Assembly: GCF_056746865.1 (NCBI RefSeq)
Contig: NZ_CM163382.1
DNA length: 64,000 nucleotides
Strand: one strand, 5' to 3'
Below the pieces are notes generated by a model. It was not told the DNA's origin. It worked only from the letters and a program-made list of their open reading frames with translations, and searched no databases. The position numbers and the translations under genes were made by a program. Below, piece by piece: positions 23,898 to 28,960 of the stretch. The stretch's first letter is position 1, and each line of letters begins with the position of its first letter.

Positions 23898-24390
23898 GAA
23901 ACCTCGTGCGGTGATTGTTTTTTTGATCTACGCAGTGATGCGTGTGTAAGTTTTCAATTCCGTTTGTTGTATTGATTTGTTTACATCAAAGAAGTTTGAA
24001 TTGTTACAAAAGGACTTCCGTCAGATCAAGAATAATGGTATGCGGCAGCGAATGCACCCGCTTTATGCATGGTTGAAGATGAGTTGCTTAAAAAGAAACC
24101 GTTTGTAAAGCTCAGCCTCAACCCCTCTCAATATGTATAATGAATTTAAATTCGTTTTAATTGAATTAAAAATCACAAAATTGGTAAGTGAATCGGTTCA
24201 ATTCGGATTTTTATAGTTTAATAATCGTTAAAAAACCCCTTTCCTACGTAAAGTCTACATTTGTGCATAGTTACAACTTTGAAACGTTATATATGTCAAG
24301 TTGTTAAAATGTGCACAGTTTCATGATTTCAATCAAAACCTATATGGACATAAGGTGAATACTTTGTTACTTTAGCGTCACAGACATGAA

Positions 24391-24405
24391 ATTGGTAAGA
24401 CCAAT
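24391..24405 (+). promoter_or_regulatory. PdhR operator (perfect palindrome ATTGGTaagACCAAT) in pdhR promoter region
   Basis: attggtaagaccaat 33 nt upstream of pdhR ATG; matches known PdhR box. Confidence 0.75.
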
Positions 24406-24437
24406 TGACTTCGGCAAGTGGCTTAAGACAGGAACTC

Positions 24438-25202
24438 ATGGCCTACAGCAAAATCCGCCAACCAAAACTCTCCGATGTGATTGAGCAGCAACTGGAGTTT
24501 TTGATCCTCGAAGGCACACTCCGCCCGGGCGAAAAACTCCCACCGGAACGCGAACTGGCGAAACAGTTCGACGTCTCCCGTCCCTCCTTGCGTGAGGCGA
24601 TTCAACGTCTCGAAGCGAAGGGCTTGTTGCTTCGTCGCCAGGGTGGCGGCACTTTTGTCCAGAGCAGCCTATGGCAAAGCTTCAGCGATCCGCTGGTGGA
24701 GCTGCTCTCCGACCATCCTGAATCACAGTATGACTTGCTCGAAACACGACACGCCCTGGAAGGTATCGCCGCTTATTACGCCGCGCTGCGTAGTACCGAT
24801 GAAGACAAGGAACGCATCCGTGAACTCCACCACGCCATAGAGCTGGCGCAGCAGTCTGGCGATCTGGACGCGGAATCAAATGCCGTACTCCAGTATCAGA
24901 TTGCCGTCACCGAAGCGGCCCACAATGTGGTTCTGCTTCATCTGCTAAGGTGTATGGAGCCGATGTTGGCCCAGAATGTCCGCCAGAACTTCGAATTGCT
25001 CTATTCGCGTCGCGAGATGCTGCCGCTGGTGAGTAGTCACCGCACCCGCATATTTGAAGCGATTATGGCCGGTAAGCCGGAAGAAGCGCGCGAAGCATCG
25101 CATCGCCATCTGGCCTTTATCGAAGAAATTTTGCTCGACAGAAGCCGCGAAGAGAGTCGCCGTGAGCGTTCTCTGCGTCGTCTGGAGCAACGAAAGAATT
25201 AG
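24438..25202 (+). CDS. pdhR: Pyruvate dehydrogenase complex repressor PdhR (GntR/FadR family)
   Basis: ATG at 24438 gives 254 aa [26 protein letters not shown]... with GntR wHTH; ORF track begins at upstream TTG. Confidence 0.92.
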
Positions 25203-25362
25203 TGATTTTTCTGGTAAAAATTATCCAGAAGATGTTGTAAATCAAGCGCATATAAAAGCGCGGCAACTAAACGTAGAACCTGTCTTATTGAGCTTTCCGG
25301 CGAGAGTTCAATGGGACAGGTTCCAGAAAACTCAACGTTATTAGATAGATAAGGAATAACCC

Positions 25363-28026
25363 ATGTCAGAACGTTTCCCAAATGACGTGGATCCGATCGA
25401 AACTCGCGACTGGCTCCAGGCGATCGAATCGGTCATCCGTGAAGAAGGTGTTGAGCGTGCTCAGTATCTGATCGACCAACTGCTTGCTGAAGCCCGCAAA
25501 GGCGGTGTCAACGTAGCCGCAGGCACCGGTATCAGCAACTACATCAACACCATCCCCGTTGAAGAACAACCGGAGTATCCGGGTAATCTGGAACTGGAAC
25601 GCCGTATTCGTTCAGCTATCCGCTGGAACGCCATCATGACGGTTCTGCGTGCGTCGAAAAAAGACCTCGAACTGGGCGGCCACATGGCGTCCTTCCAGTC
25701 TTCCGCAACCATTTATGATGTGTGCTTTAACCACTTCTTCCGTGCACGCAACGAGCAGGATGGCGGCGATCTGGTTTACTTCCAGGGCCACATCTCCCCG
25801 GGCGTTTACGCTCGTGCTTTCCTGGAAGGTCGTCTGACTCAGGAGCAGCTGGATAACTTCCGTCAGGAAGTTCACGGCAATGGCCTCTCTTCCTATCCGC
25901 ACCCGAAACTGATGCCGGAATTCTGGCAGTTCCCGACCGTATCTATGGGTCTGGGTCCGATTGGTGCTATTTACCAGGCTAAATTCCTGAAATATTTGGA
26001 ACACCGTGGCCTGAAAGATACCTCTAAACAGACCGTTTACGCCTTCCTCGGCGACGGTGAAATGGACGAACCGGAATCCAAAGGTGCGATCACCATCGCT
26101 ACCCGTGAAAAACTGGATAACCTGGTCTTCGTTATCAACTGTAACCTGCAGCGTCTTGACGGCCCGGTCACCGGTAACGGCAAGATCATCAACGAACTGG
26201 AAGGCATCTTCGAAGGTGCTGGCTGGAACGTGATCAAAGTGATGTGGGGTAGCCGTTGGGATGAACTGCTGCGTAAAGATACCAGCGGTAAACTGATCCA
26301 GCTGATGAACGAAACCGTTGACGGCGACTACCAGACCTTCAAATCGAAAGATGGTGCGTACGTTCGTGAACACTTCTTCGGTAAATATCCGGAAACCGCA
26401 GCTCTGGTTGCAGACTGGACTGACGAGCAGATCTGGGCGCTGAACCGTGGCGGTCACGATCCGAAGAAAATCTACGCTGCATTCAAGAAAGCGCAGGAAA
26501 CCAAAGGCAAAGCGACGGTAATCCTTGCTCATACCATTAAAGGTTACGGCATGGGCGACGCGGCTGAAGGTAAAAACATCGCGCACCAGGTTAAGAAAAT
26601 GAACATGGACGGCGTGCGTCATATCCGCGACCGTTTCAATGTGCCGGTGTCTGATGCAGATATCGAAAAACTGCCGTACATCACCTTCCCGGAAGGTTCT
26701 GAAGAGCATACCTATCTGCACGCTCAGCGTCAGAAACTGCACGGTTATCTGCCAAGCCGTCAGCCGAACTTCACCGAGAAGCTTGAGCTGCCGAGCCTGC
26801 AAGACTTCGGCGCGCTGCTGGAAGAGCAGAGCAAAGAGATCTCTACCACTATCGCTTTCGTTCGTGCTCTGAACGTGATGCTGAAGAACAAGTCGATCAA
26901 AGATCGTCTGGTACCGATCATCGCCGACGAAGCGCGTACTTTCGGTATGGAAGGTCTGTTCCGTCAGATTGGTATTTACAGCCCGAACGGTCAGCAGTAC
27001 ACCCCGCAGGACCGCGAGCAGGTTGCTTACTATAAAGAAGACGAGAAAGGTCAGATTCTGCAGGAAGGGATCAACGAGCTGGGCGCAGGGTGTTCCTGGC
27101 TGGCAGCGGCGACCTCTTACAGCACCAACAATCTGCCGATGATTCCGTTCTACATCTATTACTCGATGTTCGGCTTCCAGCGTATCGGCGATCTGTGCTG
27201 GGCGGCTGGCGACCAGCAAGCGCGTGGCTTCCTGATCGGCGGTACTTCCGGTCGTACCACCCTGAACGGCGAAGGTCTGCAGCACGAAGATGGTCACAGC
27301 CACATTCAGTCGCTGACTATCCCGAACTGTATCTCTTACGACCCGGCTTACGCTTACGAAGTTGCTGTCATCATGCATGACGGTCTGGAGCGTATGTACG
27401 GTGAAAAACAAGAGAACGTTTACTACTACATCACTACGCTGAACGAAAACTACCACATGCCGGCAATGCCGGAAGGTGCTGAGGAAGGTATCCGTAAAGG
27501 TATCTACAAACTCGAAACCATTGAAGGTAGCAAAGGTAAAGTTCAGCTGCTGGGCTCCGGTTCTATCCTGCGTCACGTCCGTGAAGCGGCAGAGATCCTG
27601 GCGAAAGATTACGGCGTAGGTTCTGACGTTTATAGCGTGACCTCCTTCACCGAGCTGGCGCGTGATGGTCAGGATTGTGAACGCTGGAACATGCTGCACC
27701 CGCTGGAAACACCGCGCGTTCCGTATATCGCTCAGGTGATGAATGACGCTCCGGCAGTGGCATCTACCGACTATATGAAACTGTTCGCTGAGCAGGTCCG
27801 TACTTACGTACCGGCTGACGACTATCGCGTACTGGGTACTGATGGCTTCGGTCGTTCCGACAGCCGTGAGAACCTGCGTCACCACTTCGAAGTTGATGCT
27901 TCTTATGTCGTGGTTGCGGCGCTGGGCGAACTGGCTAAACGTGGCGAAATCGATAAGAAAGTGGTTGCTGACGCAATCGCCAAATTCAACATCGATGCAG
28001 ATAAAGTTAACCCGCGTCTGGCTTAA
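25363..28026 (+). CDS. aceE: Pyruvate dehydrogenase E1 component AceE
   Basis: 887-aa [32 protein letters not shown]..., ThDP-dependent E1. Confidence 0.97.
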
Positions 28027-28040
28027 GAGGTAAAAGAATA

Positions 28041-28960
28041 ATGGCTATCGAAATCAAAGTACCGGACATCGGGGCTGATGAAGTTGAAATCACCGAGATC
28101 CTGGTCAAAGTGGGCGACAAAGTTGAAGCCGAACAGTCGCTGATCACCGTAGAAGGCGACAAAGCCTCTATGGAAGTACCATCTCCGCAGGCGGGTATCG
28201 TTAAAGAGATCAAAGTCTCTGTTGGCGATAAAACCCAGACCGGCGCACTGATTATGATTTTCGATTCCGCCGACGGTGCAGCTGACGCTGCACCTGCTCA
28301 GGCAGAAGAGAAGAAAGAAGCAGCTCCGGCAGCAGCACCAGCGGCTGCGGCGGCAAAAGACGTTAACGTTCCGGATATCGGCAGCGACGAAGTCGAAGTG
28401 ACCGAAATCCTGGTGAAAGTTGGCGATAAAGTTGAAGCTGAACAGTCGCTGATCACCGTAGAAGGCGACAAGGCTTCTATGGAAGTTCCGGCTCCGTTTG
28501 CAGGCACCGTGAAAGAGATCAAAGTGAACGTGGGTGACAAAGTGTCTACCGGCTCGCTGATTATGGTCTTCGAAGTCGCGGGTGAAGCAGGCGCGGCAGC
28601 TCCGGCGGCTAAACAGGAAGCAGCTCCGGCAGCGGCCCCTGCATCAGCAGCTGGCGTGAAAGAAGTTAACGTTCCGGATATCGGCGGTGACGAAGTTGAA
28701 GTGACCGAAGTGATGGTGAAAGTGGGCGACAAAGTTGCCGCTGAACAGTCACTGATCACCGTAGAAGGCGATAAAGCTTCTATGGAAGTCCCGGCTCCGT
28801 TTGCAGGCGTCGTGAAGGAACTGAAAGTCAACGTTGGCGATAAAGTGAAAACTGGCTCGCTGATTATGATCTTCGAAGTTGAAGGCGCAGCGCCTGCGGC
28901 AGCTCCTGCGAAACAGGAAGCGGCAGCGCCGGCTCCGGCAGCAAAAGCTGAAGCTCCGGC
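28041..28960 (+). repeat. aceF: Three tandem ~300-bp in-frame repeats encoding the AceF lipoyl domains and linkers
   Basis: Near-identical nucleotide blocks around 28080-28260, 28380-28560 and 28680-28860. Confidence 0.85.

What the first reader, a model, noticed from the sequence alone, without database searches (positions are those of the whole stretch)
28041..28960. Triplicated lipoyl-domain coding repeats in aceF
Three ~300-bp near-identical direct repeats within one gene are substrates for RecA-dependent deletion or expansion (lipoyl-domain number variants are viable). They also spawn long spurious antisense ORFs (e.g. 28298..28990).
Basis: partly seen in the sequence, partly recalled or inferred. 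Interest (0 to 1): 0.2.

Follow-up and report, generated by a model that had tools for sequence, protein, structure and literature searches.

The report
Three lipoyl-domain repeats in aceF
This is the well-known E. coli gene for the core subunit of pyruvate dehydrogenase, whose three tandem "swinging-arm" domains are old, only 71-79% alike at the DNA level, and very stable: about 0.2% of complete E. coli genomes have lost part of the array.

Summary
Window 28041-29933 (+) is E. coli aceF, inside pdhR-aceE-aceF-lpd. Its first ~950 nt hold three tandem units (309 and 303 nt apart), each a lipoyl domain plus an Ala/Pro linker.

The units are not near-identical. They share 71-79% of bases (73-83% in the folded cores). 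The longest perfect shared blocks are 32, 21 and 20 nt. Synonymous divergence is 0.56-1.05 with dN/dS about 0.2. Each domain is closer to its positional counterpart in Salmonella than to its neighbours, so the triplication is ancient and not being homogenised.

Among 5,423 complete E. coli genomes carrying aceF, 12 (6-8 independent events) have in-frame deletions. Eight lost one unit (300-309 nt). Four clonal isolates have an out-of-register 192-nt deletion. None has an expansion. Four-domain versions occur only in draft or metagenome assemblies and two Salmonella records, and several are clearly chimeric. Junctions lie in short identical blocks, mostly the lipoyl-lysine core. That fits RecA-independent template switching at least as well as RecA-dependent crossing-over.

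The antisense ORF 28298-28990 exists but follows from composition and codon bias. Longer antisense ORFs lie outside the repeats. The feature is textbook and of low interest.

The parts
28041..29933 (+). aceF coding sequence (630 aa): dihydrolipoyllysine-residue acetyltransferase, the E2p core of pyruvate dehydrogenase
   Evidence: ORF and translation. NCBIfam equivalog NF008814 scores 1101.8 bits against a cutoff of 722. 100% DNA identity to annotated aceF. PDB 7b9k_A matches over residues 1-630.
28044..28271 (+). Lipoyl domain 1 (aa 2-77); lipoyl-lysine codon K41 at 28161-28163
   Evidence: Lipoyl HMM hit 2-77. DKA motif position.
28272..28352 (+). Ala/Pro-rich linker 1
   Evidence: Translation. 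Short Ala/Pro repeat family D2. A +3 aa length polymorphism occurs in strain TW10598.
28353..28580 (+). Lipoyl domain 2 (aa 105-180); lipoyl-lysine codon K144 at 28470-28472
28581..28655 (+). Ala/Pro-rich linker 2
   Evidence: A -8 aa polymorphism occurs in strain N31.
28656..28883 (+). Lipoyl domain 3 (aa 206-281); lipoyl-lysine codon K245 at 28773-28775
   Evidence: Matches the NMR structure 1qjo, query residues 206-284.
28884..29018 (+). Long Ala/Pro-rich linker 3, up to the subunit-binding domain
   Evidence: Polymorphisms of +8 aa and -4 aa in strains MLI106K4 and J31.
29019..29126 (+). Peripheral-subunit (E3) binding domain, aa 327-362
   Evidence: Pfam PF02817, E=1.9e-16.
29235..29927 (+). 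Catalytic acetyltransferase domain, aa 399-629, containing the DHRVIDG motif
   Evidence: Pfam PF00198, E=2.4e-80. Motif visible in the translation.
28131..28162 (+). Longest perfect block shared between repeats (32 nt), identical to 28440-28471 in lip2
   Evidence: Longer than in codon-column shuffles, P about 0.009 (uncorrected for the three repeat pairs tested).
28449..28505 (+). 57-nt lipoyl-lysine core of lip2. It differs at only 3 sites from 28752-28808 in lip3. All four natural lip2/lip3 deletion junctions map here.
28752..28808 (+). Partner core in lip3 for the deletion hotspot
28298..28990 (-). Antisense ORF of 230 aa (TTG start): a low-complexity, repetitive A/S/T-rich translation, judged spurious
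   Evidence: No Pfam or PHROG match. Translation and cause of the open frame.
25363..28026 (+). aceE (E1p), the upstream gene of the operon (context)
   Evidence: Pfam PDH_E1_M, E=5e-103. Annotation in a related genome.
30141..31565 (+). lpdA (E3), the downstream gene (context). The start is inferred from the annotated spacing in strain 463.

Best explanation
The region is the 5' third of E. coli aceF. It encodes three tandem lipoyl domains, each with a lipoyl-lysine in a DKA hairpin and each followed by a flexible Ala/Pro linker. From established knowledge, these are the swinging arms that carry acetyl groups between the E1, E2 and E3 active sites of pyruvate dehydrogenase.

The three units come from an ancient triplication that predates the Escherichia-Salmonella split. 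Each copy is kept by purifying selection, and their synonymous sites have diverged nearly to saturation. At the DNA level they are homeologous rather than homologous.

The array is consequently very stable. Only rarely is one unit, or an out-of-register piece, lost by recombination or template switching between the short perfect blocks that remain. These blocks lie mainly in the conserved lysine-hairpin core and in the linkers. The losses are in-frame. They are inferred to be tolerated because fewer lipoyl domains suffice for activity.

The antisense ORFs are by-products of sense-strand codon bias and amino-acid composition.
For: Identity of the gene and domains.

Divergence: 71-79% nucleotide identity with perfect blocks of 32 nt or less. 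Other alleles have blocks of 29-38 nt.

Age and selection: dS is 1.05, 1.01 and 0.56, with dN/dS 0.17-0.20. E. coli lip1, lip2 and lip3 are 96%, 93% and 91% identical to the same-position Salmonella domains. Within the E. coli protein the domains are only 79%, 74% and 86% identical.

Stability: flank-only queries show 12 of 5,423 complete genomes with a deletion and none with an expansion of about 150 nt or more.

Junctions: they fall in 4-20 nt runs relative to this allele. Four of them lie in the 57-nt lysine core, and all are in frame.

Independence of the events: the flanks differ at 27-41 of 2,550 sites among strains C2, Rb-50, C4 and VTB97379v.

Viability and redundancy of domains: PMC5013485, citing Guest 1985, and PMC8421416.

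Antisense ORFs: in the codon-aligned phase, TTA and CTA are absent and TCA occurs twice. Synonymous-codon shuffles give equally long antisense runs for aceF.
Against: The mechanism of the natural deletions is not shown by sequence alone. The parental alleles are unknown, so the true lengths of the shared blocks at each junction are uncertain (up to about 38 nt in sampled alleles).

Lipoylation and enzyme function were not tested here.

Across distant homologues, 88 of 220 lipoyl domains are most similar to a domain in the same protein. Over long time scales the arrays therefore do turn over or homogenise, so 'stable' holds only within the Escherichia-Salmonella time frame.

Some of the 12 deletions could be assembly or laboratory artefacts.
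Confidence: 0.9

Rival explanations
1. One reading: the repeats are good substrates for RecA-dependent unequal crossing-over, which produces both deletions and expansions of lipoyl domains.
For: Deletions of exactly one unit (300-309 nt) exist in 8 complete genomes. Junctions cluster in the longest or most similar stretches, as seen for RecABCD joints between 22%-diverged genes (PMC2327257). A 32-nt block (29-38 nt in other alleles) just exceeds the minimum processing segment. Four-domain proteins whose junctions are the reciprocal of the deletions appear in draft assemblies: P0001, P0003, P0005, P0011, P0012.
Against: Identity is only 71-79%, and RecABCD recombination at 22% divergence is about 1e-6. 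No expansion occurs in 5,423 complete genomes. Several junctions lie in runs of 4-20 nt, below the minimum segment. One event is out of register at a 5-nt run inside an imperfect VGDKV-coding motif. The four-domain records are mostly short-read assemblies. Some are inter-species chimeras or have permuted domains: P0002, P0007, P0016, P0027, P0043.
Confidence: 0.3
2. The rare deletions arise by RecA-independent template switching or slippage between short identical blocks during replication.
For: The repeats are close together, and their perfect blocks are far below 200 bp. That is the regime in which RecA-independent deletion predominates (PMC7145654). Junction microhomologies are 4-20 nt, and one event is out of register. 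In complete genomes deletions outnumber expansions 12 to 0.
Against: No genetic test was possible. The clustering of junctions in the most similar core is also expected for homeologous RecA-dependent exchange. The excess of deletions could reflect selection rather than mechanism.
Confidence: 0.5
3. The copy-number variants are assembly or laboratory artefacts, and natural E. coli always has three lipoyl domains.
For: Four-domain versions come mainly from SPAdes or MEGAHIT contigs. They have exact 308-356 nt duplications or mixed-strain copies, and some are chimeric or permuted.
Against: The deletions are in finished chromosomes from unrelated projects. Two of them are shared by sets of related isolates: 01_3327 and 03_3013, and 439, 446, 447 and 463. 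At 71-79% identity, repeat collapse during assembly is unlikely. The two-domain protein WP_032220595.1 is annotated in three genomes with two different DNA junctions.
Confidence: 0.15
4. The 230-aa antisense ORF (28298-28990, minus strand) is a real overlapping gene.
For: It stays open in K-12, and the same phase is largely open in Salmonella. Its wobble positions coincide with those of aceF, so sense-synonymous changes are also synonymous in it (11:1 in both frames). The substitution test therefore cannot exclude coding.
Against: It has no Pfam or PHROG family. Its translation is low-complexity, repetitive and A/S/T/P/G-rich, and it starts with TTG. Openness is explained by the lack of Tyr and His codons and the rarity of T/C-wobble plus CA in the sense frame. 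Comparable or longer antisense ORFs occur throughout this highly codon-biased operon. The 409-aa antisense ORF shows 1 synonymous to 20 non-synonymous changes.
Confidence: 0.02

Closest known systems
E. coli K-12 AceF (E2p, b0115), the classic three-lipoyl-domain dihydrolipoamide acetyltransferase
   Same: Same gene. 98.4% DNA identity to MG1655 aceF, with 30 nucleotide differences of which 29 are synonymous. Same domain order: lip1-lip2-lip3-PSBD-catalytic. Same operon. Solved structures 7b9k, 4n72 and 1qjo match.
   Different: Only allelic differences, for example one amino-acid change in linker 2 (S here, P in K-12).
Engineered and natural AceF variants with fewer lipoyl domains (Guest et al. 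1985; Serratia symbiotica AceF)
   Same: In-frame loss of whole lipoyl units yields proteins reported as functional (PMC5013485). The natural E. coli two-domain alleles found here (C2, C4, Rb-50, VTB97379v, FDAARGOS_1283, DSM 103263, 01_3327 and 03_3013) have the same architecture.
   Different: The window itself carries the full three-domain allele. The activity of the natural two-domain alleles was not tested.
E2 components of other 2-oxoacid dehydrogenases (SucB with one lipoyl domain; E2p of other bacteria with one or two)
   Same: Same lipoyl, PSBD and catalytic modules.
   Different: The number of lipoyl domains differs. Among 150 representatives of the nearest 50%-identity clusters, 45 have one, 96 have two, 7 have three and 1 has four; one had none detected.

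Membership tests
AceF / E2p, long form (NCBIfam NF008814, TIGR01348) | Full-length match above the curated equivalog cutoff | tested here: met
   NF008814 scores 1101.8 bits against a cutoff of 722, covering residues 1-630. TIGR01348 scores 1041.5 against 552.1.
AceF / E2p, long form (NCBIfam NF008814, TIGR01348) | N-terminal lipoyl domains with the lipoyl-lysine in a DKA motif | tested here: met
   Three Biotin_lipoyl stretches. The DKASMEVP motif places the lysines at K41, K144 and K245.
AceF / E2p, long form (NCBIfam NF008814, TIGR01348) | [quoted passage not shown] | tested here: met
   PF02817 at aa 327-362 and PF00198 at aa 399-629. '[11 protein letters not shown]' is in the translation.
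AceF / E2p, long form (NCBIfam NF008814, TIGR01348) | Operon context pdhR-aceE-aceF-lpdA | tested here: met
   Pfam hits for the neighbouring ORFs. The same order is annotated in strain 463.
AceF / E2p, long form (NCBIfam NF008814, TIGR01348) | Lysines actually lipoylated; acetyltransferase activity | not testable with these tools
   Needs biochemistry. Inferred from identity to the characterised E. coli protein.
Efficient RecA-dependent homologous-recombination substrate (direct repeats) | High overall identity between the copies (a few percent divergence or less) | tested here: not met
   71-79% identity. Tandem Repeats Finder gives 79% matches.
Efficient RecA-dependent homologous-recombination substrate (direct repeats) | Uninterrupted identity well above the ~23-25 bp minimum efficient processing segment | tested here: inconclusive
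   One 32-nt block; the others are 21 nt or less in this allele. Blocks of 29-38 nt occur in other alleles. The threshold is from PMC1636419.
Efficient RecA-dependent homologous-recombination substrate (direct repeats) | Rearrangement frequency depends on recA | not testable with these tools
   Requires a genetic assay.
Hypervariable (contingency-type) intragenic tandem repeat | Copy number differs commonly among strains of the species | tested here: not met
   12 of 5,423 complete genomes have deletions and none has an expansion.
Overlapping antisense protein-coding gene | Homology to a known family, or a substitution pattern showing selection in the antisense frame | tested here: inconclusive
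   No Pfam or PHROG hit. The synonymous/non-synonymous test is uninformative for the 230-aa ORF because its wobble positions coincide with those of aceF. The 409-aa ORF shows 1 synonymous to 20 non-synonymous changes, so it is not coding.

The most novel reading that the evidence does not exclude
E. coli populations carry a recurrent, low-frequency polymorphism in lipoyl-domain number. It is generated at a hotspot in the lysine-hairpin core (28449-28505 / 28752-28808) and is strongly biased towards loss. It includes an out-of-register 192-nt deletion that uses the internal VGDKV pseudo-repeat of the lipoyl fold and leaves a '1.5-domain' chimera in a clinical clone (strains 439, 446, 447 and 463). 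If these alleles are real and functional, they are natural experiments on how many swinging arms PDH needs and on how far the lipoyl fold tolerates half-domain fusion.
Probability: 0.5. Interest if true: 0.3.

Novelty: already known. Interest (0 to 1): 0.12.

Why it matters

There are two practical lessons. First, repeats that look alike to a reader can be 21-29% diverged and therefore genetically stable. Second, such repeats still mislead short-read assemblers and annotation pipelines. PGAP calls the in-frame two-domain allele of strains 01_3327 and 03_3013 a pseudogene, and draft assemblies contain chimeric four-domain genes.

The census gives a baseline for natural variation in lipoyl-domain number: 12 deletions and no expansions in 5,423 complete genomes.

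Tried and rejected
(1) Plain megablast of aceF or of the 950-nt repeat region against complete E. coli genomes. This could not count copy-number variants, because cross-repeat alignments still gave at least 80% coverage. I replaced it with flank-only queries whose length sets the tool's joining distance.

(2) A synonymous versus non-synonymous test on the 230-aa antisense ORF. It is uninformative because its wobble positions coincide with those of aceF, so I do not use it as evidence against coding.

(3) Using four-domain proteins from the large protein collection as evidence for natural expansion. I rejected this as proof. The contigs are short-read assemblies, and several proteins are inter-species chimeras or have permuted domains. 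The Salmonella Pullorum CP006575 four-domain gene has non-identical copies and remains unresolved.

(4) Rfam scan of 24000-32000. No RNA family lies in the repeats. The only hit is the tp2 sRNA upstream of aceE.

(5) A gene-conversion signal between repeats. Only the lip1-lip2 32-nt block is longer than in shuffles (P about 0.009, uncorrected). The other two pairs are not. This is too weak to claim conversion.

Full report
**What is there.** The ORF at 28041-29933 (+) encodes a 630-aa protein.
- Pfam finds three Biotin_lipoyl stretches, an E3-binding domain (aa 327-362) and a 2-oxoacid dehydrogenase catalytic domain (aa 399-629).
- NCBIfam places it in the AceF equivalog NF008814 (1101.8 bits against a cutoff of 722).
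- The PDB entry 7b9k, E. coli E2p, matches end to end.
- The DNA is 100% identical to annotated aceF of E. coli strain 118UI and 98.4% identical to MG1655.
- The neighbours are pdhR, aceE and lpdA.

The window is therefore the E. coli pdhR-aceEF-lpd operon.

**The repeats.** The repeat finder reports three 300-nt copies spaced 309 and 303 nt apart. Tandem Repeats Finder reports 28062-28879, period 303, 2.7 copies, 79% matches. Each unit is one lipoyl domain (aa 2-77, 105-180, 206-281) plus an Ala/Pro-rich linker. The lipoyl-lysine codons are at 28161, 28470 and 28773.

Codon-aligned nucleotide identity is 72.7%, 71.3% and 78.9% for whole units, 74.6%, 73.3% and 83.3% for the folded cores, and 62-65% for the linkers. 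The longest perfect shared blocks are 32 nt (lip1/lip2), 21 nt (lip2/lip3) and 20 nt (lip1/lip3). In five other E. coli alleles the longest blocks are 29-38 nt. 'Near-identical' is therefore wrong. A published figure of 73% amino-acid identity among the three domains agrees (PMC8421416).

**Age and selection.** Nei-Gojobori estimates on the 80-codon cores give dS of 1.05, 1.01 and 0.56, with dN/dS of 0.17-0.20. E. coli lip1, lip2 and lip3 are 96%, 93% and 91% identical to the same-position domains of Salmonella AceF. They are only 79%, 74% and 86% identical to each other. The triplication therefore predates the Escherichia-Salmonella split and has not been homogenised since.

Further out the picture changes. 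Among the 150 best representatives of 50%-identity clusters, 45 have one lipoyl domain, 96 have two, 7 have three, 1 has four and 1 had none detected. In the multi-domain proteins, 88 of 220 domains have their nearest neighbour in the same protein. Within-protein identity has a median of 54%, against 40% between proteins. Over long times the arrays do turn over or undergo concerted evolution.

**Variation among strains.** Ordinary BLAST summaries could not separate copy-number variants. I therefore queried with the two unique flanks only and chose the query length so that the tool's joining distance discriminates.
- A 700-nt flank query joins the flanks only if at least about 100 nt of the 950-nt array is missing. 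Twelve of 5,423 genomes qualify.
- A 1,200-nt flank query would fail to join if at least about 150 nt were added. All 5,423 joined, so there are no expansions.

The mapped junctions are:
- C2 and Rb-50: 303 nt lost, lip2/lip3 hybrid, junction in the 20-nt run at 28449-28468.
- C4 and VTB97379v: 303 nt lost, junction in the 18-nt run at 28488-28505.
- FDAARGOS_1283: 300 nt lost, linker 1 to linker 2, 17-nt run.
- DSM 103263: 306 nt lost, linkers, 4-nt run.
- 01_3327 and 03_3013: 309 nt lost, lip1/lip2 hybrid, next to the 32-nt block.
- 439, 446, 447 and 463: 192 nt lost, out of register. The deletion joins the VGDKV-coding motif in the C-terminal half of lip2 to the one in the N-terminal half of lip3.

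All are in frame. The four lip2/lip3 junctions fall within a 57-nt core (28449-28505 against 28752-28808) that differs at only three sites. Flanking sequence shows that C2, Rb-50, C4 and VTB97379v are different lineages, whereas 01_3327 and 03_3013 are identical. That makes 6-8 independent events. Run lengths are measured against the window allele. The parental alleles are unknown, so the runs could be somewhat longer.

**Expansions.** The large protein collection lists AceF proteins of 723-738 aa with four lipoyl domains. Their junctions are the reciprocals of the deletions. However, they come from short-read isolate or metagenome assemblies. Some carry exact 308-356 nt duplications and others mixed-strain copies. 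Several are inter-species chimeras (P0002, P0007, P0016, P0027) or have permuted domains (P0043). I treat them as unproven. The four-domain gene in the complete S. Pullorum chromosome CP006575 has non-identical copies and is unresolved.

**Mechanism.**
- Shown: the array is homeologous, its perfect blocks are short, and losses are rare, in frame and concentrated in the most conserved core.
- From the literature: the minimum efficient processing segment for RecA is about 23-25 bp (PMC1636419). RecABCD recombines 22%-diverged genes at about 1e-6, far below the rate for identical ones, with joints mostly in the longer identical blocks (PMC2327257). Deletions between short, close direct repeats are prominently RecA-independent (PMC7145654). 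One lipoyl domain suffices for activity (Guest 1985, cited in PMC5013485).
- Inferred: the rare natural deletions are at least as well explained by RecA-independent template switching as by RecA-dependent unequal exchange. Sequence alone cannot decide between them.

**Antisense ORFs.** The 230-aa ORF at 28298-28990 (-) exists. It has no family match, and its translation is repetitive and A/S/T/P/G-rich. In its phase, an antisense stop needs a T- or C-ending codon followed by a TA- or CA-starting codon. The lipoyl units lack Tyr and His and rarely meet the condition at Gln. Repetition only multiplies a stop-free unit.

In the codon-aligned phase aceF has no TTA or CTA and only two TCA codons. 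Synonymous-codon shuffles give equally long antisense runs for aceF. The largest antisense ORFs (757 aa in aceE, 409 aa over the aceF catalytic region) lie outside the repeats.

The substitution test is uninformative for the 230-aa ORF, because its wobble positions coincide with those of aceF (11 synonymous to 1 non-synonymous in both frames). It is clearly negative for the 409-aa ORF (1 to 20).

**Verdict.** The locus is correctly identified and is textbook. The repeat similarity and the recombination claim are overstated. Natural deletion variants exist at about 0.2%, and no verified expansions were found. Interest is low.

Noticed in passing
L001 3501-5201 (E. coli strain 463; also strains 439, 446 and 447); corresponds to window 28530-28726: Four related clinical isolates from Taiwan share an out-of-register 192-nt in-frame deletion in aceF. 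It joins the VGDKV-coding motif of the lip2 C-terminal half to that of the lip3 N-terminal half, leaving about 1.5 domains with two lysine hairpins. It exploits the internal pseudo-repeat of the lipoyl fold.
   Followed up: partly
L007 and L008 1054-2634 (E. coli strains 01_3327 and 03_3013): PGAP annotates the in-frame two-lipoyl-domain aceF allele (309-nt deletion, intact ATG) as a pseudogene 'missing N-terminus'. This looks like an annotation artefact of the repeat deletion.
   Followed up: partly
window 28272-28352, 28581-28655 and 28884-29018 (the three Ala/Pro linkers): Small in-frame length polymorphisms among complete E. coli genomes all fall in the linkers: +3 aa in linker 1 (TW10598), -8 aa in linker 2 (N31), and +8 aa (MLI106K4) or -4 aa (J31) in linker 3.
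   Followed up: partly
window 25247-25360 (-), pdhR-aceE intergenic region: Rfam match to the sRNA family tp2 (RF02030, 103 bits, full length), antisense to the aceE leader.
   Followed up: no
window 25612-27885 (-): A 757-aa antisense ORF spans most of aceE, in the codon-aligned phase. aceE has no TTA or CTA and only two TCA codons. Its longest stop-free antisense run (804 codons) is matched or exceeded by only 3% of synonymous-codon shuffles.
   Followed up: partly
L013 1501-3678 (Salmonella Pullorum CP006575.1); protein P0035 (Salmonella enterica, 723 aa): Two Salmonella chromosome-scale records encode AceF with four lipoyl domains whose extra copies are not identical (longest exact self-repeat 173 nt). 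They could be real expansions or old assembly errors.
   Followed up: partly
E. coli genome collection searches: A few matches to aceE/aceF lie on records labelled as plasmids (3-6 places). Three of 5,426 genomes lack the lipoyl region, one of them the engineered strain JCL301.
   Followed up: no
proteins P0036 (680 aa) and P0034 (707 aa), E. coli-like AceF from the protein collection: These variants duplicate the peripheral-subunit-binding domain region rather than a lipoyl domain. P0034 looks like an E. coli/other-enterobacterium chimera.
   Followed up: no
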